From Escherichia coli (lineage in GTDB: Bacteria; Pseudomonadota; Gammaproteobacteria; Enterobacterales; Enterobacteriaceae), in NCBI RefSeq assembly GCF_029227855.1, contig NZ_CP074358.1: a DNA stretch of 64,000 nt. The stretch is one strand, 5' to 3'. Both the position numbers and the translations under genes were made by a program. Of this stretch, positions 4,799 through 30,123 are shown piece after piece (within the stretch, counting starts at the first letter, position 1; each line of letters starts with the position of its first letter). The notes beneath the pieces were generated by a model. That model was not told where the DNA came from. It worked only from the letters and a program-made list of their open reading frames with translations, and did no database searches.

Positions 4799-5107
4799 GT
4801 GACTCACATGACAAAAACAGTATCAACCAGTAAAAAACCCCGTAAACAGCATTCGCCTGAATTTCGCAGTGAAGCCCTGAAGCTTGCTGAACGCATCGGT
4901 GTTACTGCCGCAGCCCGTGAACTCAGCCTGTATGAATCACAACTCTACAACTGGCGCAGTAAACAGCAAAATCAGCAGACGTCTTCTGAACGTGAACTGG
5001 AGATGTCTACCGAGATTGCACGTCTCAAACGCCAGCTGGCAGAACGGGATGAAGAGCTGGCTATCCTCCAAAAGGCCGCGACATACTTCGCGAAGCGCCT
5101 GAAATGA
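4799..5107 (+). CDS. IS3 OrfA (transposase N-terminal HTH part)
   Basis: 102 aa, helix-turn-helix and leucine-zipper-like C-terminus ([19 protein letters not shown]); inside the IS3 ends. Confidence 0.9.
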
Positions 5108-12978: not shown

Positions 12979-13323
12979 CCGGTAAAGGATGTCGCCGTGC
13001 TCCTCTTTTTACTGCGCCGGCTGACGCGGCGCGGCATAAACGCTGCCTGTGGTCAGTGTCCCGCGTCCGGTGGGTACGGGACGGGCGCTTTTACCGCTCC
13101 CGGCTGGCGTCGGTGACAGTGTACGCCAGCCTGTCGCCCTTTTCTGATGAGCGCCCTTCAAGCCGCTTTCGCGGCATAGCCTTGCCGTCAAAAAGACGAC
13201 GGCTGCGGTATTCCACGGTCGGCCTGACCCGTTACCGGACGCGGTGAACAGCCCACAGGCAGCGGGGAACGGGCACCACAGGGGTGCCCTCCCGGTGCCT
13301 TCTGTAAGAGAAGGAGTGTTGTT

Positions 13324-14007
13324 ATGTCCCGTTTTGTCCTCGGTAACTGCATCGATGTTATGGCCCGTATTCCTGATAACGCCATTGATTTCATACTGAC
13401 TGACCCGCCATATCTCGTCGGTTTCCGTGACCGTTCCGGGCGCACCATCGCCGGTGATAAAACCGACGAATGGCTGCAACCGGCCTGTAATGAAATGTAC
13501 CGCGTGCTGAAAAAAGATGCGCTGATGGTGAGCTTCTATGGCTGGAACCGCGTCGATCGCTTTATGGCCGCCTGGAAAAATGCGGGATTCAGCGTGGTTG
13601 GCCACCTGGTATTTACCAAAACCTACACATCGAAGGCCGCATATGTGGGCTATCGCCACGAATGCGCTTACATCCTGGCAAAAGGGCGTCCGGCGCTGCC
13701 TCAGAAGCCATTGCCCGACGTGCTGGGCTGGAAATATTCAGGCAACCGCCATCACCCGACGGAAAAGCCTGTTACCAGCCTGCAACCACTGATTGAGAGC
13801 TTCACACACCCGAACGCGATTGTGCTGGACCCGTTTGCAGGCAGCGGCTCAACCTGTGTGGCTGCCCTTCAGTCCAGACGCCGGTATATCGGTATCGAGC
13901 TGCTTGAACAGTATCACCGTGCCGGACAGCAACGACTGGCCGCCGTGCAACGGGCCATGCAGCAGGGGGCCGCGAATAATAACTGGTTTGAACCGGAGGC
14001 TGCGTAA
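13324..14007 (+). CDS. Orphan DNA methyltransferase (N6-adenine/N4-cytosine type, beta-class motif order)
   Basis: DPPY motif IV (ILTDPPYLVGF) precedes motif I (FAGSGSTCVAA); RBS agaaggag; no restriction endonuclease partner nearby. Confidence 0.85.
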   Translation: MSRFVLGNCIDVMARIPDNAIDFILTDPPYLVGFRDRSGRTIAGDKTDEWLQPACNEMYRVLKKDALMVSFYGWNRVDRFMAAWKNAGFSVVGHLVFTKTYTSKAAYVGYRHECAYILAKGRPALPQKPLPDVLGWKYSGNRHHPTEKPVTSLQPLIESFTHPNAIVLDPFAGSGSTCVAALQSRRRYIGIELLEQYHRAGQQRLAAVQRAMQQGAANNNWFEPEAA

Positions 14008-15505: not shown

Positions 15506-15921
15506 TGACGCTGGCGGGGAAAAATCTCCGCCTTTTCCAGCCGGTCCTCGGACAGAGCACAAAGGAAGTCGCCGCCGGGTCCGCTTTACCCGGCCATGCA
15601 GGGCATGGCCTTGTGGTTTTTCAGTTATGTGGCCTCAGCGTCGTGTGCGGGCTGTGCCGTGCCTCCATCTTAGCCGGGCTGGCGTTGATGCAAGGGTACG
15701 CTTCGCCGCTGCGGTCACCCGGTCCCTCCTTCCCGTCTGCCGTGATTTTCCGGTCGTTCACCCGCTCAGATTTCGCGGTCTCACCCTGCAACTCCCGTCA
15801 GCCGTGTGCGTCAGGCTGCGGCTTCCCTTGCGCCCCTGCATCCCCGCCTGTTCGCCCGGCTTTTATGGAGGCACGGCACCGCCCGGTGTCGCGGAATATG
15901 TGAACAACAGAGGAAAACATC

Positions 15922-16347
15922 ATGCAATATGCGAAACCTGTCACTCTGAATGTTGAAGAGTGCGACCGTCTCTCCTTTCTGCCGTATCTGTTTGGCAACG
16001 ATTTTCTGTATGCCGAGGCGTATGTGTACGCGCTGGCGCAAAAAATGATGCCGGAATATCAGGGAGGCTTCTGGCACTTCATCCGCCTGCCGGACGGTGG
16101 CGGTTACATGATGCCGGATGGCGACCGTTTCCACATGGTGAACGGTGCAAACTGGTTTGACCGTACCGTGAGTGCTGATGCCGCAGGCATCATCCTGACC
16201 TCCCTTGTGATTAACCGCCAGTTGTGGCTGTACCACGACAGCGGGGATGCAGGACTGACCCAGCTTTACCGGATGCGCGATGCGCAGTTGTGGCGTCACA
16301 TCGAATTTCACCCCGAATGCAACGCGATTTACGCGGCTCTGGACTGA
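15922..16347 (+). CDS. klcA: Antirestriction protein, KlcA/ArdB family
   Basis: [31 protein letters not shown] and [12 protein letters not shown] match recalled KlcA/ArdB pattern; 141 aa. Confidence 0.8.
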
Positions 16348-17169: not shown

Positions 17170-17625
17170 CCTGATGTTGTTGTTCCTTTATCTGCTGCTC
17201 TGATTCTGACTACTGCAGTGTTGTTCTGTCTGCCGGGCGCACCTTCGGCTCCCGGCATCCCGGCAAAAGGCCGCCGGGATGTAAGGGGCAACGCCGTTTC
17301 GCGCACGCGCTCTCCGTCGTTGCGGCGGGTCCCTGCTCATTGCCTGCCGGTGCCACACACCCGTATGAGTCCCTGTCGCCGGGGGCTGATACAGCCACAA
17401 CCTGCCGCACTGACTGTCCAGGGTAAATGAACAGCCCACAAAATTTTTTACCCAAAACCCGGTAAAAAATTTTGCGTTCTGCCCAGGACAGGTGCGTCAG
17501 GCCGTGGCAGTGATGCCCCTTGCGGCGAAGGTTCTCAAACGGGTGAAGTTCATACCACAGGGAATACAGCAGCAGGTTCCCGCGAAACGTCAAAACCGCG
17601 GCTCCCGAAACTCAACGGGTGATGT
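17170..17625. repeat. Frpo/ssi-like structured non-coding repeat, copy A (short form)
   Basis: Shares 5' block ctgattctgactactgcagtgttg...cgggcgcaccttcggctcccggc and 3' block with copies B and C; lacks ~190 bp internal block; hairpin 17437-17476. Confidence 0.6.
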
Positions 17626-17853
17626 TCTTTAAAAATCAGGATTTATTTCAGGCTCCGGCAATACGCATTTATGTGTTCTGTCAGTCATCCGGCTGGCAGG
17701 TAATGAGAACGCAGGAACAGAAGGAGGAAAACACCGGAGAACGTCAGACGCAGATATGAAAAAAGCAGGTCAGGGACCTGCTTAATCCACACCGCAGAGA
17801 CTGCACGAACAGTCTTTACGGTTTCATTAATTAACGTCATAAGAGGCTAAATT

Positions 17854-18084
17854 ATGACAGTAAGTATTGTTTCACCTTCCGCAGCGGCTGTAAAGCCCCG
17901 CCGTCATCCCCGTTGCAGACGCGAAGACATCCCCGCGCCGGAAATTGACCCCGTGCTGAAAGCCTTCGGGCGACACATTGCCCGGAGTTTTCACCGGGGG
18001 CGTGGTGTACACATCCCCGCCATGAAAAACACGGCCTTCGGGCAGGTGCTCCGCACACTCGAACTGAAACGCGCTTTTAACTGA
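17854..18084 (+). CDS. Small basic hypothetical protein (76 aa)
   Basis: First ORF after repeat copy A; RBS agagg about 10 nt upstream. Confidence 0.35.
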   Translation: MTVSIVSPSAAAVKPRRHPRCRREDIPAPEIDPVLKAFGRHIARSFHRGRGVHIPAMKNTAFGQVLRTLELKRAFN

Positions 18085-18135: not shown

Positions 18136-19497
18136 ATGACATTAGCAGCAATCACCATGACCGCCCCGGAAGCCGCCAGCCCTGTGCAGATGTACCGCGC
18201 GACCTACTCACCGGATGACAACAAACTGCGCCTGTATGCCGTGTCACGTCTTGACTCGGAGACGTATAAAAAAGTGCATGATGCCGGTTTCCGCTGGGCA
18301 CCAAAACAGGCGCTGTTTGTCGCGCCAGCCTGGACACCGGGCCGGGAAGACGTGCTCCTCTCACTTGCCGGAGAGATTGAGGATGAAGACAGCACGCTCG
18401 CTGAACGTCAGGAAGCACGGGCGGAGCGGTTTACCGGATACAGCGGAAAGCGGGCCAGTGAATCCGCACAGGCACTTGATGAAGTGGAAAGACTGGCCGC
18501 GATGATCCCGCCCGGTCAGCCCATTCTTGTGGGGCATCACAGCGAACGCCGCACCCGTCGTGATGCGCAGCGTATTGAAAACGGCATGAAACGAGCCGTG
18601 ATGCTCTTTGAACGTGCGGAATACTGGGAAGAGCGGGCGCGGTCGGCACTGCTTCACGCGAAGTATAAAGAACGTCCGGACGTTCGCTGGCGTCGTATCA
18701 AAAAAATCGAAGCTGATTTGCGCAAGGCTGAAAAGACCATCGCGCAGTCGCAGAAATATCTGACGATGTGGCGGGCTGAATCGCTGGATCTGAATATGGC
18801 AAAACTCATCAGCAGTCATGACCATATCAGCGCCTGTTTCCCGCTGGATACGTATCCGCGCCCGGCAGAAAAAAGCCAGTATGAAGGAAGTCGATCGTTA
18901 TGGTCGGCCCTGGATGATGACATCATCACCACGGAGCAGGCCCGCGAAATTGCGATCCGCTGTCATGAACGGCAGATTCAGCATCAACAACGCTGGGTTA
19001 ACCACTATCAGAACCGCCTGATCTATGAGCGTGCCATGCTGGACGAAAGCGGCGGCGTGGTTACCCGGACACAGGATTTTGAGCCGGGCGGACAGGTTTT
19101 CAGCCGGGGCGAGTGGCTGACCATCATCCGTGTGAACAAAAGCAACGGGGCGGTGAGTTCAGTCACAACGCCAAATTACAGTTTTCTCGGGTACAGCGGC
19201 ACGATGAAAGTGACGCCCGATCGCATCACGGACTACAAAGCACCATCGGCAGAAGAGGCTGCCGTCGCCAGTCAGGCCGCGAAGCGTCCGCCGGTAGTCA
19301 ACTATCCGGGGGAAGGTTTCCGGGAAATGACAAAGGCACAGTGGGCCGCCCTGCCCCGGGACTGTAAGGCCGTGCGCAGTGTGGCAGAAGCAGAAGACCA
19401 CGGGGCATACCGGTACCGCCGCACAATGGACAATAATTTCCGCCTGGTGAATGTGTATATCACCGACATGAAAATCACGGAAATCCCACAGAAATAA
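18136..19497 (+). CDS. Conserved hypothetical protein, 453 aa (DUF3560-like large leading-region protein)
   Basis: Long ORF with RBS ggaaggaga; charged helical middle region; family assignment from memory only. Confidence 0.65.
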   Translation: MTLAAITMTAPEAASPVQMYRATYSPDDNKLRLYAVSRLDSETYKKVHDAGFRWAPKQALFVAPAWTPGREDVLLSLAGEIEDEDSTLAERQEARAERFTGYSGKRASESAQALDEVERLAAMIPPGQPILVGHHSERRTRRDAQRIENGMKRAVMLFERAEYWEERARSALLHAKYKERPDVRWRRIKKIEADLRKAEKTIAQSQKYLTMWRAESLDLNMAKLISSHDHISACFPLDTYPRPAEKSQYEGSRSLWSALDDDIITTEQAREIAIRCHERQIQHQQRWVNHYQNRLIYERAMLDESGGVVTRTQDFEPGGQVFSRGEWLTIIRVNKSNGAVSSVTTPNYSFLGYSGTMKVTPDRITDYKAPSAEEAAVASQAAKRPPVVNYPGEGFREMTKAQWAALPRDCKAVRSVAEAEDHGAYRYRRTMDNNFRLVNVYITDMKITEIPQK

Positions 19498-19544: not shown

Positions 19545-20108
19545 ATGCACAGTCAGTTAAGAGAACGTATCCGGCTGATGCGCGCAAGGCTGGATAACGC
19601 CGCGCCGGTTGCTGAAATCCGGGCTGAATCTCAGCTTTTTGTGACTCCTGCCCCGGTCTGTGATCGCCTGGTGATGCTGGCGGAGATCAGCAACCGTGAT
19701 CACATTCTGGAACCCTCTGCCGGCACCGGGGCCATACTGCGGGCGATTCGGGATACCGCGCCGGGGGCCATGTGTGATGCGGTGGAAATCAACAGCGGGC
19801 TGGTCCGGTATCTGCGGGAAAATTTTAACGGTGTCAGGGTTCAGTGTGGCGACTTCATGGAATGGCAGCCAGTGCAGTATTACAGCCGGGTTATCATGAA
19901 TCCGCCGTTCAGCCACGGGCAGGATATCCGGCATATCCTGCGGGCCTTTTCCCTGTTGCGTCCGGGTGGCGTGCTGGTCGCCGTCTGTCTCAACGGACCA
20001 CGCCAGCAGGAGAAGCTGTTACCGTTTTCTGACGTCCGCGAGGAGCTGCCGCGCGGCACGTTTGCTTATACCGATGTCCCGACGATGATTATTCGTCTGC
20101 GTGCCTGA
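19545..20108 (+). CDS. Small SAM-dependent methyltransferase-like protein (187 aa), candidate second orphan methyltransferase
   Basis: Motif I EPSAGTGA and NPPF motif; RBS ggagg. Confidence 0.65.
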   Translation: MHSQLRERIRLMRARLDNAAPVAEIRAESQLFVTPAPVCDRLVMLAEISNRDHILEPSAGTGAILRAIRDTAPGAMCDAVEINSGLVRYLRENFNGVRVQCGDFMEWQPVQYYSRVIMNPPFSHGQDIRHILRAFSLLRPGGVLVAVCLNGPRQQEKLLPFSDVREELPRGTFAYTDVPTMIIRLRA

Positions 20109-20264: not shown

Positions 20265-20965
20265 GTTACTGATGATGTTGTTGTTCCTGCTACTGCTACT
20301 GCTACTGCTACTGCTACTGCTACTGTTCTTCTTTTTCCTGCTGCTCTGATTCTGACTACTGCAGTGTTGTCCTGTCTGCCGGGCGCACCTTCGGCTCCCG
20401 GCTGCCTGGCGGCATCCGGTCGTCAGGCCCGACTCCGACAGGCAGCTGCTGGCGCACCTGCCAGTCTCCGCCGAACCCGCTGGCGCGGTTTCGGGCTGTC
20501 GCTACGGTCCGATGCGTGAAAACCCCGGGCTTGCAGCGACCGTTCCGGTCGCGCCACCCTTGTCGCGCCGTGGCCTGCGCTCCTGGCATCCCGGCAAAAG
20601 GCCGCCGGGATGTAAGGGGCAACGCCGTTTCGCAAACCGCGCTTCACGTCGTTGCGGCGGGTCCCTGCCCGTTGTTCTGTCCGGTGCCATTCACCTGTTT
20701 AAGCCCCTGTCGCCGGGGGCAAAGACAGCCACAACCGTCTCCGCCAGTCCAGGGGTGAAATGTACATCCCGCAAAACTTTTTGCCCAAAAGCAGGCAAAA
20801 ACTTTTGCGGTCTGCCCCCGGACAGTCGTTTCCGTCCGTGGCAGTGATGCCCCTTGCGGCGAAGGTTCTCAAAAAGGTGATGGTGAATACCGGAGGGAAC
20901 AAAAGGCAGGTCCCCGCAAAACGTCAAAACCGCGGCTCCCGAAACTCAAAAGATGATGGGGGCTG
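20265..20965. repeat. Frpo/ssi-like structured non-coding repeat, copy B (long form), immediately upstream of ssb
   Basis: Near-identical to copy C over ~620 bp; hairpin ccgcaaaactttttgcc-caaaagca-ggcaaaaacttttgcgg at 20769-20810. Confidence 0.6.
20287..20325. repeat. Hexanucleotide microsatellite (CTGCTA)x6.5
   Basis: Six perfect tandem ctgcta units plus ctg, at the 5' edge of repeat copy B; absent from copies A and C. Confidence 0.9.
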
Positions 20966-20991
20966 AAAACATCAACAGAAGGAGGCACATC

Positions 20992-21827
<836 letters not shown>

Positions 21828-23905: not shown

Positions 23906-24340
23906 ATGAAAACTGAACTGACCCTGAATGCCCTGCAGTCCATGAACGCACAGGAATATGAAGATATCCGTGCTGCGGGAAGCGATATGCGCCGTAATCT
24001 CACTCACGAGGTGATGCGTGAAGTGGACGCACCGGCTAACTGGATGATGAATGGCGAGTATGGCAGTGAGTTCGGGGGCTTTTTCCCCGTCCAGGTTCGT
24101 TTCACGCCAGCCCACGAACGTTTCCACCTGGCGTTATGTTCACCGGGCGATGTCTCTCAGGTCTGGGTGCTGGTTCTGGTGAATGCCGGTGGTGAGCCGT
24201 TTGCGGTGGTTCAGGTACAGCGGCGGTTTGCACCGGAAGCCGTCAGCCATTCACTGGCACTGGCGGCGTCACTGGACGCGCAGGGGTACAGCGTCAGTGA
24301 CATCATCCATATCCTGATGGCGGAAGGAGGTCAGGCATGA
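23906..24340 (+). CDS. psiB: Plasmid SOS inhibition protein B
   Basis: 144 aa matching recalled PsiB ([25 protein letters not shown]...). Confidence 0.9.
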
Positions 24341-25744: not shown

Positions 25745-26395
25745 GTGATTATTCTCTTTTTCTTCCTGCTCTGATTCTGACTACTGCAGTGTTGTCCTGT
25801 CTGCCGGGCGCACCTTCGGCTCCCGGCTGCCTGGCGGCATCCGGTCGTCAGGCCCGACTCCGACAGGCAGCTGCTGGCGCACCTGCCAGTCTCCGCCGAA
25901 CCCGCTGGCGCGGTTTCGGGCTGTCGCTACGGTCCGATGCGTGAAAACCCCGGGCTTGCAGCGACCGTTCCGGTCGCGCCGCCTCTGTCGCGCCGTGGCC
26001 TGCGCTCCTGGCATCCCGGCAAAAGGCCGCCGGGATGTAAGGGGCAACGCCGTTTCGCAAACCGCGCTTCACGTCGTTGCGGCGGGTCCCTGCCCGTTGT
26101 TCTGTCCGGTGCCATTCACCTGTTTAAGCCCCTGTCGCCGGGGGCTGATACAGCCACAACCTGCCGCACTGACTGTCCAGGGTAAATGAACAGCCCGCAA
26201 AACTTTTTGCCCAGAAGCAGGCAAAAACTTTTGCGGTCTGCCCCCGGACAGTCGTTTCCGGCCGTGGCAGTGATGCCCCATGCGGCGAAGGTTCTCAAAC
26301 AGGTGATGGTGAATACCGGAGGGAACAAAAGGCAGGTCCCCGCAAAACGTCAAAACCGCGGCTCCCGAAACTCAACAGATGATGGGGGCTGAAAA
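25745..26395. repeat. Frpo/ssi-like structured non-coding repeat, copy C (long form)
   Basis: Near-identical to copy B; hairpin 26195-26236; 3' part resembles copy A (ctgatacagccacaacctgccgcactgactgtccagggtaaatgaacagccc). Confidence 0.6.
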
Positions 26396-26416: not shown

Positions 26417-26704
26417 ATGAGTACCCGAAATATCCAAGTTAACACCGCGTCGTACACGCTTCTTGTTGCCGGGAAGAAAAAAAACACCGGGGAAGAGTGG
26501 GACGTCCTGGAATTCAGCAGCCTGACTGAGCTGAAAAAATATCGCAAAAGCCACCCGGAAAAGATGGCCTTCAGTTATAGCTACGCGCTCAGTCAGGGTG
26601 TGGATAAGCAGTTCCGCCATATCAACATTGCGGAAGCCGATCACTTCAAACAGTTCCTGCGTCAGATTAAGCGTGCCGGCCTCGATATCCGGGCGATCTG
26701 CTGA
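26417..26704 (+). CDS. Small conserved leading-region protein (95 aa)
   Basis: ATG 26417 with aggagaaagcagg RBS directly after repeat copy C. Confidence 0.55.
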   Translation: MSTRNIQVNTASYTLLVAGKKKNTGEEWDVLEFSSLTELKKYRKSHPEKMAFSYSYALSQGVDKQFRHINIAEADHFKQFLRQIKRAGLDIRAIC

Positions 26705-26823: not shown

Positions 26824-27588
26824 ATGCGATTAGCTTCCCGTTTTGGTCGGTATAATTCCATCCGCCGTGAACGTCCTTTAACGGATGATGAATTAATGCA
26901 GTTCGTGCCTTCGGTATTTTCCGGTGATAAACCTGAGTCCCGGAGTGAACGTTATACGTATATTCCAACAATCAATATCATCAATAAGTTACGTGATGAA
27001 GGTTTCCAGCCATTCTTTGCCTGTCAGAGTCGGGTTCGTGATTTGGGACGTCGCGAATACAGTAAACATATGTTACGTCTTCGCAGGGAAGGGCATATTA
27101 ACGGACAGGAAGTTCCTGAAATTATCCTGCTTAATTCACATGATGGTTCATCCAGTTATCAGATGATCCCCGGAATTTTTCGTTTTGTCTGCACAAATGG
27201 CCTGGTGTGCGGAAATAATTTTGGCGAAATCCGCGTTCCACATAAAGGTGATATTGTCGGGCAGGTTATCGAGGGAGCGTATGAAGTGCTCGGTGTCTTT
27301 GATAAGGTCACTGATAATATGGAGGCGATGAAAGAAATTCATCTTAACAGTGACGAGCAACATTTATTTGGCAGAGCTGCACTGATGGTCAGGTATGAAG
27401 ATGAAAATAAAACGCCAGTGACACCTGAACAGATAATTATTCCCCGTCGTCGGGAAGACAAACAGAACGATCTCTGGACAACCTGGCAGCGGGTTCAGGA
27501 GAATATGATAAAAGGTGGATTATCGGGGCGAAGTGCCTCCGGAAAAATACCAGGACAAGAGCCATTACAGGTATTGATGGTGATATAA
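26824..27588 (+). CDS. Conserved leading-region protein (254 aa), oriT-proximal
   Basis: RBS aaaggag; no catalytic motif recognised. Confidence 0.6.
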   Translation: MRLASRFGRYNSIRRERPLTDDELMQFVPSVFSGDKPESRSERYTYIPTINIINKLRDEGFQPFFACQSRVRDLGRREYSKHMLRLRREGHINGQEVPEIILLNSHDGSSSYQMIPGIFRFVCTNGLVCGNNFGEIRVPHKGDIVGQVIEGAYEVLGVFDKVTDNMEAMKEIHLNSDEQHLFGRAALMVRYEDENKTPVTPEQIIIPRRREDKQNDLWTTWQRVQENMIKGGLSGRSASGKIPGQEPLQVLMVI

Positions 27589-28499: not shown

Positions 28500-28860
28500 A
28501 AAAGGCTCAACAGGTTGGTGGTTCTCACCACCAAAAGCACCACACCCCACGCAAAAACAAGTTTTTGCTGATTTTTCTTTATAAATAGAGAGTTATGAAA
28601 AATTAGTTTCTCTTACTCTCTTTATGATATTTAAAAAAGCGGTGTCGGCGCGGCTACAACAACGCGCCGACACCGCTTTGTAGGGGTGGTGCTGACTATT
28701 TTTATAAAAAACATTATTTTATATTAGGGGTGCTGCTAGCGGCGCGGTGTGTTTTTTTATAGGATACCGCTAGGGGCGCTGCTAGCGGTGCGTCCCTGTT
28801 TGCATTATGAATTTTAGTGTTTCGAAATTAACTTTATTTTATGTTCAAAAAAGGTAATCT
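28500..28860. other. oriT: Origin of transfer (oriT) with F-type nic region and inverted/direct repeats
   Basis: Bottom strand carries ttgcgtggggtgtggtgcttttggtggtgagaacc (F-like nic sequence, nick near 28540/28541); 14-bp inverted repeat gcggtgtcggcgcg/cgcgccgacaccgc at 28639-28676; direct repeats gctgctagcgg(c/t)gcg. Confidence 0.75.
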
Positions 28861-29247: not shown

Positions 29248-29354
29248 AAGAAATTTGACTTCGTTCAAATATCAGAGTTTTTATGATTTAAAAAGGTGAC
29301 AGTACGAAAGATAATTAGTATATTAATTACGTGGTTAATGCCACGTTAAAATTT

Positions 29355-29435
29355 GAATTTGAAAATCGCCGATGCAGGGAGTTCTCTCCTCCCTGCATCG
29401 ACTGTCCATAGAATCCTTTGTGAGGAGGTTCCTAT
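29355..29435 (-). ncRNA. finP: FinP antisense RNA (approximate), complementary to the traJ leader
   Basis: 12-bp perfect hairpin cgatgcagggag-ttctctc-ctccctgcatcg at 29370-29400 in the traJ 5' UTR; architecture of FinOP systems. Confidence 0.5.
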
Positions 29436-30123
29436 GTATCCGATGGATCGTATTCAACAAAAACATGCTCGTCAAATAGATCTGCTGGAAAATCTGACGG
29501 CAGTTATTCAGGATTATCCAAATCCAGCCTGTATCAGGGACGAAACTGGAAAATTTATTTTTTGCAATACGCTGTTTCATGAGTCATTTCTTACACAAGA
29601 TCAAAGTGCTGAAAAATGGCTTCTGTCGCAGAGAGATTTTTGTGAATTGATCTCTGTCACAGAGATGGAAGCATACAGGAATGAGCATACGCATCTTAAT
29701 CTTGTAGAGGATGTTTTTATTCAGAACAGATTCTGGACAATATCTGTCCAGTCATTTCTTAATGGACACAGAAATATCATTCTGTGGCAATTTTATGATG
29801 CTGCTCATGTTCGTCATAAAGACAGTTATAATCAAAAAACGATTGTCAGTGATGATATCAGAAATATAATCAGAAGAATGAGTGATGATTCTTCTGTATC
29901 ATCATATGTAAATGATGTCTTTTACTTATATAGCACCGGAATCAGTCATAATGCTATAGCAAGAATATTAAACATATCCATCTCCACATCAAAGAAACAC
30001 GCGTCTCTGATATGCGACTACTTCTCTGTTTCTAATAAAGATGAGTTAATCATCTTACTCTACAATAAAAAGTTTATTCATTATTTGTACGAGAAGGCTA
30101 TGTGTATCATAAATACGCGTTAA
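29434..30123 (+). CDS. traJ: TraJ transfer activator (229 aa)
   Basis: ATG 29434 with gaggagg RBS; AT-rich gene; position between traM and traY. Confidence 0.85.
   Translation: MYPMDRIQQKHARQIDLLENLTAVIQDYPNPACIRDETGKFIFCNTLFHESFLTQDQSAEKWLLSQRDFCELISVTEMEAYRNEHTHLNLVEDVFIQNRFWTISVQSFLNGHRNIILWQFYDAAHVRHKDSYNQKTIVSDDIRNIIRRMSDDSSVSSYVNDVFYLYSTGISHNAIARILNISISTSKKHASLICDYFSVSNKDELIILLYNKKFIHYLYEKAMCIINTR

What the first reader, a model, noticed from the sequence alone, without database searches (positions are those of the whole stretch)
17437..17476. Hairpin conserved across repeat copies with a compensatory base-pair change
Copies B (20769-20810) and C (26195-26236) carry ccgcaaaactttttgcc-loop-ggcaaaaacttttgcgg. 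Copy A carries cacaaaattttttacc-loop-ggtaaaaaattttgcg at the same place. The G:C pair in B/C (...tttttGcc / ggCaaaaa...) is an A:T pair in A (...ttttttAcc / ggTaaaaaa...), so the stem is kept while the sequence changes. Covariation of this kind points to selection on structure rather than on coding.
Basis: seen in the sequence. Interest (0 to 1): 0.55.

Follow-up and report, generated by a model that had tools for sequence, protein, structure and literature searches.

The report
Tip of a single-stranded DNA promoter

Summary
All three copies (17437-17476, 20769-20810, 26195-26236) carry a 16-17 bp A/T-rich stem with an 8-nt loop. The G:C pair of copies B and C is an A:T pair in copy A.

The hairpin is not a free-standing element. 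It caps a ~320-nt imperfect hairpin (A 17296-17611, B 20627-20945, C 26052-26371) that is homologous to F plasmid ssiD/Frpo and ColIb-P9 ssi1-3. These are the class-1 single-stranded-DNA promoters of plasmid leading regions, which drive zygotic induction of ssb, psiB and neighbouring genes.

A wider alignment supports selection on pairing. Among 20 distinct sequences, 7 of 17 pairs changed on both sides, and 0 of 500 shuffles reached that. Wobble asymmetry (32 G·T against 1 A·C) and stability (55 of 55 elements) place the selection on the transferred (window minus) DNA strand, not on sense RNA.

The A/T tracts never vary, so sequence is constrained as well as pairing. The stem resembles an UP element and sits a fixed distance upstream of a -35-like TGGACA. 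A subfamily replaces it with a GC mini-hairpin.

Verdict: real, functional, already known. The specific role of the cap is inferred, not shown.

The parts
17437..17476 (-). Apical hairpin of copy A: 16-bp stem and 8-nt loop. On the minus strand it reads CGCAAAATTTTTTACC-GGGTTTTG-GGTAAAAAATTTTGTG.
   Evidence: DNA fold -13.0 kcal/mol, z -4.6; covariance-model hit of 76.2 bits.
20769..20810 (-). Apical hairpin of copy B: 17 stem positions with a central G·G mismatch, 8-nt loop.
   Evidence: -18.2 kcal/mol, z -6.0; covariance-model hit of 74.8 bits.
26195..26236 (-). Apical hairpin of copy C. Same stem as copy B, with one loop base different.
   Evidence: -21.7 kcal/mol, z -6.7; covariance-model hit of 74.3 bits.
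17296..17611 (-). Long imperfect hairpin of copy A, a class-1 ssDNA promoter. It lies upstream of the 76-aa ORF (17854-18084), the DUF3560 gene (18136-19497) and a SAM methyltransferase (19545-20108). F itself lacks this third copy.
   Evidence: dG about -95 to -115 kcal/mol, z -8.7; nhmmer match to F ssiD, 178 bits; gene names taken from the homologous locus L001.
20627..20945 (-). Long imperfect hairpin of copy B, equivalent to Frpo2/ssp1b. It lies upstream of ssb (20992-21531), a ParB-like gene, psiB (23906-24340) and psiA.
   Evidence: z -8.6; nhmmer match of 324 bits; F plasmid layout; Couturier 2023.
26052..26371 (-). Long imperfect hairpin of copy C, equivalent to Frpo1/ssiD/ssp1a. It lies upstream of the 95-aa ygeA-like ORF (26417-26704) and the DUF932 ygeB-like ORF (26824-27588).
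   Evidence: dG -108 kcal/mol; nhmmer match of 283 bits; F layout.
20756..20764 (-). Conserved unpaired bulge on the 3' side of the cap, TACATTTCA on the minus strand. The equivalents are 17424-17431 in copy A and 26183-26189 in copy C. The family motif is YATWTM(A), followed by a CCC(C) clamp.
   Evidence: Folds. The bulge is kept even where the A/T-rich cap is replaced by a GC mini-hairpin.
20746..20751 (-). -35-like hexamer TGGACT on the 3' arm, immediately after the clamp. The equivalents are TGGACA at 17415-17420 in copy A and at 26174-26179 in copy C. Its assignment as the -35 is inferred.
   Evidence: TGGAC[ATG] occurs in 15 of 27 distinct elements and TTG/TTC variants in the rest, always 19-21 nt (24 in one variant) after the A/T tract.
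20722..20727 (-). Internal loop with a -10-like hexamer, TGTCTT on the minus strand. The equivalent is TGTATC at 17388-17393 in copy A and at 26147-26152 in copy C. It lies about 18 helical steps below the -35-like hexamer. It is a weak match and its assignment is inferred.
   Evidence: Stem drawings. The homologous position reads TACGAC, TACAGA, TACGTC or TAAAAG in other subfamilies.
28534..28550 (-). oriT nick-site motif GTGGGGTGTGGTGCTTT. It marks the minus strand as the transferred strand and gives the order of entry as copy C, then B, then A.
   Evidence: a single exact match, on the minus strand only. The motif is recalled from the F oriT literature. traJ 5' UTR and FinP lie at 29329-29440.
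20587..20612 (-). Small separate hairpin CATCCCGGC-AAAAGGCC-GCCGGGATG next to the base of each long hairpin. It also occurs at 17256-17281 and 26012-26037. It belongs to the repeat unit; its role is unknown.
   Evidence: (repeat family D5, 98-100% identity).

Best explanation
The hairpin is the apical cap of a class-1 single-stranded-DNA promoter (Frpo / ssi / ssp1).

**How the element works.** During conjugation the window's minus strand enters the recipient 5' to 3' as single-stranded DNA. Each ~320-nt repeat folds back on itself. The resulting imperfect duplex is recognised by host sigma-70 RNA polymerase, which transcribes the downstream leading-region genes from the incoming strand. Copy A drives the DUF3560/methyltransferase operon, copy B drives ssb-psiB-psiA, and copy C drives ygeA/ygeB. 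Synthesis of the complementary strand then erases the fold and switches the promoter off. These steps are shown in the literature for F and ColIb-P9 homologues. Here they are inferred by homology and context.

**What the cap does (inferred).**
1. It closes and registers the long mismatched stem. Its two arms lie only 8 nt apart, so it can form first and the stem can zip down from it.
2. Its A/T tracts form the only A/T-rich duplex of the element. They lie upstream of a -35-like TGGACA on the 3' arm, and most plausibly act like an UP element for a promoter that fires away from the loop, using the 5' arm as template.

The compensatory G:C to A:T change is what selection for pairing in the single-stranded DNA would produce.
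For: **Identity**
- nhmmer matches to F ssiD (D90178) of 178-324 bits on the minus strand for all three copies (reference sequences from Samuel 2024 Supplementary Table 2).
- At least 5000 plasmid records carry the element, at up to 100% identity.

**Context**
- The nick-site motif lies on the minus strand at 28534-28550.
- The downstream genes are on the plus strand and match the F layout.
- Published work shows Frpo1 and Frpo2 are needed for early expression, maps transcription start sites for class-1 elements and shows priming of the complementary strand.

**Structure**
- The whole element folds at -95 to -118 kcal/mol, z about -8.6.
- The consensus fold of 24 elements has 54 long-range pairs, 8 of them compensatory.
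- In the cap, 90.7% of cells are paired and 7 of 17 pairs change on both sides; 0 of 500 shuffles reach that. A MAFFT-only alignment confirms it.

**Which strand folds**
- 415 Watson-Crick pairs, 32 G·T and 1 A·C on the minus strand across 31 distinct caps.
- The minus strand is more stable than its complement in 55 of 55 elements, by 14.4 kcal/mol on average; G·T pairs number 429 against 202.

**Role of the cap**
- The pairs that never vary all lie within the A/T tracts.
- The 3' arm matches the UP consensus AAAWWTWTTTT at 9-10 of 11 positions in 27 of 27 distinct elements (consensus from PMC2412878).
- The distance from the tract to the -35-like hexamer is 19-21 nt, which is 11-12 nt once the bulge is excluded. 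That puts the tract near -47 to -57.
- The functional Frpo-acrIIA4 construct of Samuel 2024 keeps only the upper stem. In it TTGAGA and TTGACG are unpaired, while the cap, the bulge and TGGACA are folded.
Against: - No canonical sigma-70 promoter is found by a consensus scan.
- The -10-like hexamer below TGGACA is weak, with G at -11 in F-type copies.
- In the old ssiD sequence the best position-weight-matrix match is TTGAGA-17-CATACT on the 5' arm, pointing towards the loop. That may be the published promoter; the papers I could read show box positions only in figures.
- A subfamily replaces the A/T-rich cap with a 5-bp GC mini-hairpin and still sits upstream of ssb. The A/T stem is therefore not essential.
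- The covariation counts come from related sequences, some aligned by a model fitted to the structure. Copies within a plasmid also recombine, so the number of independent events is smaller than the number of cells counted.
- The UP resemblance is largely a matter of composition for any A5-N-T5 palindrome.
Confidence: 0.85

Rival explanations
1. The cap is itself the core promoter. A -35-like TGG(G)CA sits at the junction of the loop and the 3' arm. The 17-nt 3' arm serves as the spacer. The single-stranded bulge is a pre-opened -10 (TACATT in copy B), and transcription starts near CCCTGGAC and runs down the 5' arm.
For: - For copy B this is the best sigma-70 match in the element: TGGGCA-17-TACATT at 7.8 bits. 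ColIb ssi2 and a Salmonella element give weaker equivalents.
- The stem length of 16-17 bp equals the optimal spacer length.
- The bulge is the most widely conserved feature of the family.
- The cap and bulge are retained in the functional truncated construct.
Against: - Copies A and C read TTCATT at that register, with no A at -11. The other register, YATWTM, lacks T at -7.
- Elements with the GC mini-hairpin have no room for a -35 placed 17 nt upstream, yet they keep the bulge.
- Half of the proposed -35 would lie in the unpaired loop.
Confidence: 0.15
2. The promoter is TTGAGA-17-CATCAC on the 5' arm and fires towards the loop. The hairpin is then an early transcribed region and the turning point for RNA polymerase, kept A/T-rich so that it melts easily or so that it sets a primer end.
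For: - This is the best match in the 1990 ssiD sequence: TTGAGA-17-CATACT at 10.1 bits.
- TTTGAGA is invariant across 24 elements, while its partner on the 3' arm varies.
- Frpo transcripts prime DNA synthesis.
Against: - In the construct that worked in vivo, TTGAGA has no complementary partner and is single-stranded.
- The modern sequence reads CATCAC, scoring 3.4 bits.
- ColIb-type and Salmonella-type elements have no equivalent boxes on the 5' arm.
- A promoter that unwinds itself on each round fits poorly with class-1 elements being the strongest ssDNA promoters.
Confidence: 0.12
3. The selected structure is an RNA hairpin in the plus-sense leader of the ssb, ygeA or DUF3560 transcripts, acting for example on stability or attenuation.
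For: The palindrome also folds on the plus strand. Read-through transcripts from upstream would contain it.
Against: - The 32 G·T wobbles on the minus strand would be C·A mismatches in plus-sense RNA, while only 1 A·C occurs on the minus strand.
- The plus strand is less stable in 55 of 55 elements.
- There is no Rfam match at this position, no T-run, and no terminator call.
Confidence: 0.04
4. The two arms are tandem copies of a 15-bp palindrome, GCAAAAAGTTTTTGC, that binds a dimeric protein on double-stranded DNA. The binding protein could be a nucleoid protein or a plasmid regulator that silences the region after conversion. Hairpin potential would then be a by-product.
For: - Each arm is itself nearly palindromic.
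- The A/T tracts never vary.
- The same G sits at the centre of both arms, giving a conserved G·G mismatch in 14 of 31 distinct caps.
Against: - Changes between the arms are compensatory rather than parallel: G-C, G·T and A-T all occur at one pair, and GC or AU at another. Two independent binding sites would not require this.
- The strand asymmetry of wobbles is not expected for a duplex site.
- No candidate protein was tested.
Confidence: 0.05
5. The hairpin is a chance palindrome or a by-product of repeat homogenisation, or it lies within a real small protein-coding gene (the 68-aa ORFs that pipelines annotate across copies B and C).
For: - Annotation pipelines call 'hypothetical protein' across the element in many plasmids.
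- The copies recombine: copy C is a mosaic of A-like and B-like segments.
Against: - Shuffle z-scores are -4.3 to -6.7, and the covariation reaches 0 of 500 shuffles.
- The ORF ends after 12 codons in copy A, and 1-nt indels separate the copies and subfamilies.
Confidence: 0.02

Closest known systems
F plasmid Frpo (ssiD), Frpo1 and Frpo2 (ssp1a/ssp1b): Masai & Arai 1997; Couturier et al. 2023
   Same: - Homologous sequence (178-324 bits).
- The same place and orientation in the leading region, upstream of ssb and of ygeA.
- The same long hairpin on the transferred strand.
- The apical stem of copies B and C is almost the same as in F Frpo1, and that of copy A is identical to F Frpo2.
   Different: - This plasmid has a third copy (A) in front of a DUF3560/methyltransferase operon that F lacks.
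- Copy C is a recombinant of A-like and B-like segments.
- No functional data exist for this particular plasmid.
ColIb-P9 / IncI1 ssi1, ssi2 and ssi3 (Bates 1999; Nasim 2004; class 1 of Wen et al. 2025)
   Same: - The same architecture: long stem, G/C clamp, A/T-rich cap, 3'-side bulge, TGGACA.
- The cap is the best-conserved segment between the F-type and I1-type elements.
   Different: The arms below the cap have diverged strongly. The I1-type lacks the TTGAGA and TTGACG motifs of the F-type 5' arm and has a T·T mismatch near the loop.
Class-2 and class-3 ssDNA promoters (ssp2 / 'Frpo3')
   Same: - Leading-region hairpins on the transferred strand, with a small cap, a YATATA-type bulge and a -10-like sequence in an internal loop on the 3' arm.
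- One such hairpin lies in this window at about 15600-15900.
   Different: There is no detectable sequence homology to class 1 along the arms. The A/T-rich duplex lies below the bulge rather than in the cap.
UP element of sigma-70 promoters (for example rrnB P1): consensus AAAWWTWTTTTNNNAAA, subsites centred near -52 and -42
   Same: - A-tract/T-tract sequence matching 9-10 of 11 consensus positions (consensus from PMC2412878).
- It lies upstream of a -35-like hexamer at about the distal-subsite distance if the bulge is extrahelical.
- It is dispensable in some family members, as an accessory element would be.
- Samuel et al. 2024 used an UP element as a search criterion for Frpo-like candidates.
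   Different: - It is formed by intramolecular pairing of single-stranded DNA and carries a central G·G mismatch in many copies.
- Dependence on the alpha C-terminal domain is untested.
- The -35 assignment is inferred.
RNA-polymerase-dependent single-strand origins: filamentous-phage minus-strand origin and sso of rolling-circle plasmids (recalled from the literature, not tested here)
   Same: Folded single-stranded DNA that mimics a promoter and is read by host RNA polymerase. The transcripts can prime complementary-strand synthesis.
   Different: Those elements make short primers and are not known to drive operon expression. No sequence relationship was examined.

Membership tests
Class-1 ssDNA promoter (Frpo / ssi / ssp1) | Sequence homology to F ssiD/Frpo or ColIb-P9 ssi1-3 | tested here: met
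   nhmmer gives 178, 324 and 283 bits for copies A, B and C against D90178, on the minus strand. The cap model also hits the F, I1 and Klebsiella-type loci.
Class-1 ssDNA promoter (Frpo / ssi / ssp1) | Lies in the leading region next to oriT, upstream of early genes, with the transferred strand as the template for those genes | tested here: met
   The nick motif is on the minus strand at 28534-28550. ssb, psiB, psiA, ygeA-like and DUF3560 genes are on the plus strand directly downstream.
Class-1 ssDNA promoter (Frpo / ssi / ssp1) | The transferred strand folds into a long, stable, imperfect stem-loop of about 300-330 nt | tested here: met
   dG is -95 to -118 kcal/mol with z about -8.6. Compensatory pairs occur along the stem. 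The transferred strand is more stable than its complement in 55 of 55 elements.
Class-1 ssDNA promoter (Frpo / ssi / ssp1) | -35 and -10 boxes reconstituted as duplex within the stem | tested here: inconclusive
   A strict consensus scan finds none. Three candidate placements emerge from position-weight-matrix and comparative analysis. A published truncated construct favours the 3' arm. The published box positions appear only in figures that I could not read.
Class-1 ssDNA promoter (Frpo / ssi / ssp1) | Transcription by sigma-70 RNA polymerase from single-stranded but not double-stranded DNA; zygotic induction; priming of the complementary strand | not testable with these tools
   Shown for F and IncI1 homologues in the literature, not for this plasmid.
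UP element | A/T-rich sequence matching AAAWWTWTTTT(NNNAAA) | tested here: met
   9-10 of 11 positions match in 27 of 27 distinct caps. An A5-N-T5 palindrome matches largely by composition.
UP element | Located at about -40 to -60, directly upstream of the -35 hexamer | tested here: inconclusive
   The tract ends 19-21 nt before the -35-like hexamer, or 11-12 nt if the 8-9 nt bulge is looped out, which puts it at about -47 to -57. This depends on the unproven -35 assignment and on the geometry of the bulge.
UP element | Stimulation that depends on the alpha-subunit C-terminal domain | not testable with these tools
   Needs in vitro transcription with alpha-CTD-deleted RNA polymerase.
Cis-regulatory RNA hairpin or intrinsic terminator | Pairing conserved in the RNA sense; for a terminator, a G+C-rich stem followed by a U-run | tested here: not met
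   The 32 wobbles would be C·A mismatches in the plus-sense RNA. There is no Rfam family at this position, no terminator call and no T-run.

The most novel reading that the evidence does not exclude
The A/T-tract cap may be a discrete, exchangeable upstream module of single-stranded-DNA promoters rather than a mere closing hairpin. Several features point that way:
- its sequence is constrained beyond pairing, because the A and T tracts never vary;
- a G·G mismatch is kept at its centre in about half of the variants;
- its spacing to the bulge and to the -35-like hexamer is fixed at 19-21 nt;
- natural swaps to a GC mini-hairpin occur within the same plasmid.

Together these suggest that it tunes promoter strength or timing among the leading-region operons, through alpha-CTD (UP-like) contacts or another DNA-binding factor that recognises the hairpin duplex.
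Probability: 0.3. Interest if true: 0.4.

Novelty: already known. Interest (0 to 1): 0.2.

Why it matters
Frpo/ssi promoters let a conjugative plasmid express anti-SOS, SSB and anti-restriction functions in the seconds before its DNA becomes double-stranded. They are therefore central to how resistance plasmids establish in new hosts.

This finding does not add a new element. The analysis shows three things:
- pairing in the cap, and along the whole stem, is under selection specifically on the transferred DNA strand;
- the cap sequence is constrained beyond pairing;
- the cap is modular.

If the cap sets promoter strength, it would explain why one plasmid carries several non-identical copies. 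It would also offer a small, defined target for tuning or blocking early plasmid gene expression.

Tried and rejected
1. **Rfam scan of the window.** It found only known plasmid RNAs (FinP, traJ 5' UTR, sok, CopA, AS-pc01 and others) and nothing at the hairpin.
2. **Consensus promoter and terminator scans.** No promoter was called, and no terminator at the hairpin.
3. **Looking up the published -35, -10 and start-site positions.** Masai & Arai 1997 and Bates 1999 are not held. Nasim 2004 did not surface in the full-text searches. The papers that are held show the boxes only in figures.
4. **PsiB-anchored scan of the species-representative genome collection.** It returned only 4 loci, two of them apparently contaminant contigs labelled Streptomyces and Oscillibacter, so I sampled plasmid records instead.
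5. **BLAST searches of the plasmid collection.** They saturate at 5000 records, so divergent relatives had to be reached with divergent seed sequences.
6. **MAFFT alignment of 27 caps.** It slipped register in the A/T runs. I replaced it with a hand-checked 9-sequence MAFFT seed plus a covariance-model alignment.
7. **The model alignment of all hits.** It mixed both strands because the element is palindromic. I filtered it by strand in a script and by E-value.
8. **A start codon as the meaning of the bulge motif.** Its complement often reads GGGG-N4-ATG. I rejected this because several elements read TAT rather than CAT there.
9. **A 5'-arm promoter pointing towards the loop.** I downgraded it after folding the published working construct.
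Full report
**What is in the sequence.**
- Copy A: 17437-17452 pairs with 17461-17476 around an 8-nt loop.
- Copy B: 20769-20785 pairs with 20794-20810.
- Copy C: 26195-26211 pairs with 26220-26236.

The G:C pair next to the loop-proximal CC/GG in B and C is A:T in A. There are two further differences. The central C·C mismatch of B and C is a T-A pair in A. One pair near the base of stem A is A·C on the plus strand but G·T on the minus strand.

Folded as DNA, each hairpin is much more stable than dinucleotide shuffles (z -4.3 to -6.7). The minus-strand version is the more stable in all three.

**It is the tip of something larger.** The hairpins lie in three direct repeats (alignment). The energies are -95 to -118 kcal/mol and z is about -8.6. 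The element even matches its own reverse complement. The long stems span 17296-17611 (A), 20627-20945 (B) and 26052-26371 (C).

**Context.**
- The window is an F-like plasmid. The traJ leader and FinP lie at 29329-29440, and sok and CopA are also present.
- The F-type nick-site motif GTGGGGTGTGGTGCTTT (recalled from the literature) occurs once, on the minus strand at 28534-28550.
- The minus strand is therefore the transferred strand. The region to the left is the leading region, and copies C, B and A enter in that order.
- The genes directly downstream lie on the plus strand, so the transferred strand is their template.
  - After A: a 76-aa ORF, a DUF3560 gene and a methyltransferase.
  - After B: ssb, a ParB-like gene, psiB and psiA.
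  - After C: ygeA-like and DUF932/ygeB-like ORFs.

**Identity.** Supplementary Table 2 of Samuel et al. 2024 lists F ssiD and ColIb-P9 ssi1-3 in transferred-strand orientation. The three copies match ssiD at 178-324 bits on the minus strand. In F, the copy upstream of ygeA/B is Frpo1 and the copy upstream of ssb is Frpo2. Deleting them abolishes early expression in transconjugants (Couturier 2023).

Wen et al. 2025 class these elements with ssi1-3 as 'class 1' ssDNA promoters and mapped their start sites. Fraikin et al. 2026 call them ssp1 and show that their transcripts prime complementary-strand synthesis.

More than 5000 plasmid records carry the element, and some are 100% identical to copy B. 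Copy A is a third copy that F lacks. It is common in IncFII, Klebsiella and Edwardsiella plasmids, upstream of the DUF3560 operon.

I collected elements from 22 plasmid and contig loci: E. coli, Salmonella, Klebsiella, Enterobacter, Citrobacter, Raoultella, Serratia, Edwardsiella, Pantoea and a Pectobacteriaceae isolate. To these I added the published reference sequences.

A hand-checked MAFFT alignment of nine diverse caps gives these figures:
- 90% of cells paired;
- 6 of 17 pairs with changes on both sides;
- 0 of 500 shuffles reaching any of the five measures;
- 0-3 such pairs when the register is slid.

A covariance-model alignment of 25 transferred-strand hits (20 distinct) gives 90.7% of cells paired, 7 of 17 pairs changed on both sides, and 0 of 500 shuffles reaching four of the five measures.

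The neighbouring outer pair shows G-C, G·T and A-T, which is a full path through a wobble intermediate.

Along the whole stem, the consensus fold of 24 elements has 54 long-range pairs. Eight are compensatory, for example GC 12 against AU 11, and GC 10, CG 7 and UA 5.

Two caveats apply. The sequences are related, and copies recombine: copy C is a mosaic, A-like on its upper 3' arm and B-like elsewhere. The counts are therefore cells, not independent events.

**Which molecule folds.**
- In 31 distinct caps read on the transferred strand there are 415 Watson-Crick cells, 32 G·T and only 1 A·C. On the plus strand, or in plus-sense RNA, those 32 would be C·A mismatches.
- The transferred strand of the whole element is more stable than its complement in 55 of 55 distinct elements, by 14.4 kcal/mol on average. 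It has 429 G·T pairs against 202.
- Several G·T pairs in the long stem are invariant.

Pairing is therefore selected on the single-stranded transferred DNA. This argues against an RNA leader structure.

**Anatomy around the cap.** All class-1 elements share the same plan:
1. a long stem ending in a G-run/C-run clamp;
2. a cap hairpin;
3. an unpaired 7-10 nt bulge on the 3' side with the motif YATWTM(A);
4. after the clamp, a -35-like hexamer, which is TGGAC[ATG] in 15 of 27 distinct elements and a TTG or TTC variant in the others.

The central position is a G·G mismatch in 14 of the 31 distinct caps, T-A in 12 and G-C in 4.

A subfamily replaces the whole A/T-rich cap with CGCGG-TTTA-CCGCG while keeping the bulge and the arms. 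Both kinds occur in one Klebsiella plasmid, and the GC-capped one sits upstream of ssb. The A/T-rich cap is therefore modular and not essential.

**Where the promoter is.** The papers I could read do not state the box positions in text. Three placements are compatible with the sequence.
- **(i) 5' arm, pointing to the loop.** TTGAGA-17-CATCAC. It reads CATACT in the 1990 sequence, where it is the best match at 10.1 bits.
- **(ii) 3' arm, pointing away from the loop.** TGGACA, then about 18 helical steps, then a weak -10-like hexamer in an internal loop.
- **(iii) The cap itself.** The cap provides the -35 and spacer, and the bulge is an open -10 (best match in copy B, 7.8 bits).

The working Frpo-acrIIA4 construct of Samuel et al. 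keeps the complete 5' arm but only about 97 nt of the 3' arm. When it is folded, TTGAGA and TTGACG are single-stranded, whereas the cap, the bulge, TGGACA and the internal loop are folded.

That disfavours placement (i). It also makes the cap the only A/T-rich duplex in the construct, and those authors searched for Frpo-like elements by -35, -10 and an A/T-rich UP element.

Other subfamilies have better -10-like hexamers at the homologous 3'-arm position: TACGAC, TACAGA and TACGTC. A class-2 relative has an unpaired TGcTAAAAG there.

I therefore favour placement (ii). This remains an inference.

**Likely role of the hairpin.**
- *First role.* The hairpin closes the element. Its arms are 8 nt apart, and both are inside the recipient before the long 3' arm arrives. 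It can therefore form first and set the register of a stem that is full of mismatches and bulges.
- *Second role.* Its 3' arm matches the UP-element consensus AAAWWTWTTTT (PMC2412878) at 9-10 of 11 positions in all 27 distinct elements. The tract ends 19-21 nt before the -35-like hexamer, or 11-12 nt if the bulge is looped out. That centres the tract near -52, where the distal UP subsite lies.

The UP reading is a resemblance, not a test. The match is partly compositional, and the geometry depends on the assumed -35 and on the bulge being extrahelical.

**Rivals considered.** I rejected an RNA structure, a terminator, a coding ORF and chance, for the reasons above. A protein site on double-stranded DNA, with each arm a near-palindrome GCAAAAAGTTTTTGC, is not excluded as an additional role. 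It does not explain the compensation between arms or the wobble asymmetry.

**Verdict.** The structure is the apical part of a well-known element that has been characterised experimentally, and the plasmid is an ordinary member of a family found in thousands of records. What may go beyond the papers I could read is modest:
- quantitative covariation and strand-asymmetry evidence;
- sequence constraint on the A/T tracts;
- the fixed spacing to the bulge and the -35-like hexamer;
- the natural swap of the cap for a GC mini-hairpin.

Noticed in passing
L001 14233-15900; L003 18238-19905; L016 11073-12740; L017 28239-28397: Group II intron reverse-transcriptase/maturase (ltrA) genes sit directly beside Frpo/ssi hairpins in several unrelated plasmids. 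This suggests that these introns target the leading-region hairpins or the single-stranded entry intermediate.
   Followed up: no
window 15600-15900 (minus strand): A second kind of long hairpin lies upstream of the antirestriction ORF at 15922-16347 (dG -85 kcal/mol, z -3.9). It resembles the 'Frpo' 4' candidate of Samuel 2024 and the class-2/ssp2/'Frpo3' promoter. A TAAGAT sequence sits in an internal loop on its 3' arm.
   Followed up: partly
window 13000-13300: This is the strongest other fold in the leading region: -93.6 kcal/mol per 300 nt, against a mean of -49.6. It lies just upstream of the DNA methylase ORF at 13324-14007. It may be a class-3-type ssDNA promoter, but both strands fold about equally well.
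   Followed up: no
window 17424-17431, 20756-20764, 26183-26189, and all related loci: A conserved unpaired bulge, YATWTM(A), lies on the 3' side of the cap. It is the most widely conserved feature of the family and is kept even in elements with a GC mini-hairpin cap and in class-2 relatives. Its complement often reads like a Shine-Dalgarno sequence plus ATG, but several elements have TAT instead of CAT there. Its function is unexplained.
   Followed up: partly
window 20760-20966 and 26186-26392 (plus strand); L023 1168-1374, 2793-2999, 8566-8772; L001 20237-20377: Annotation pipelines-68 aa 'hypothetical proteins' inside the promoter hairpins. The frame is broken in copy A and between subfamilies, so these are probably spurious gene calls across thousands of plasmid records.
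   Followed up: partly
window 26106-26243 compared with 17347-17484 and 20681-20818: Copy C is a mosaic. Its upper 3' arm is 89% identical to copy A but only about 61% identical to copy B over the same 138 nt. Its cap and 5' arm are 97% identical to B. This points to recombination or gene conversion between copies that lie 3-9 kb apart.
   Followed up: no
window 20330-20629 and 25755-26054: Copies B and C share a further ~300-nt G+C-rich repeat (98% identity) beyond the base of the long hairpin. Copy A has only part of it. It also folds strongly on the minus strand. Its role is unknown.
   Followed up: no
window 17256-17281, 20587-20612, 26012-26037: A small, nearly invariant hairpin, CATCCCGGC-AAAAGGCC-GCCGGGATG, flanks the base of each long hairpin. 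Counterparts occur in the Klebsiella-type, insect-type and Salmonella-type elements.
   Followed up: no
L005 (contig labelled uncultured Oscillibacter) and L006 (contig labelled Streptomyces morookaense): These short contigs encode a PsiB 94% identical to the E. coli plasmid protein. They are almost certainly enterobacterial plasmid contamination in those assemblies.
   Followed up: no
window 17760-17859 (minus strand): There is an Rfam AS-pc01 match (antisense to pHK01_035, 98.9 bits) between copy A and the 76-aa ORF, ending in a terminator-like hairpin at 17763-17783. An antisense RNA would thus sit immediately downstream of an ssDNA promoter.
   Followed up: no
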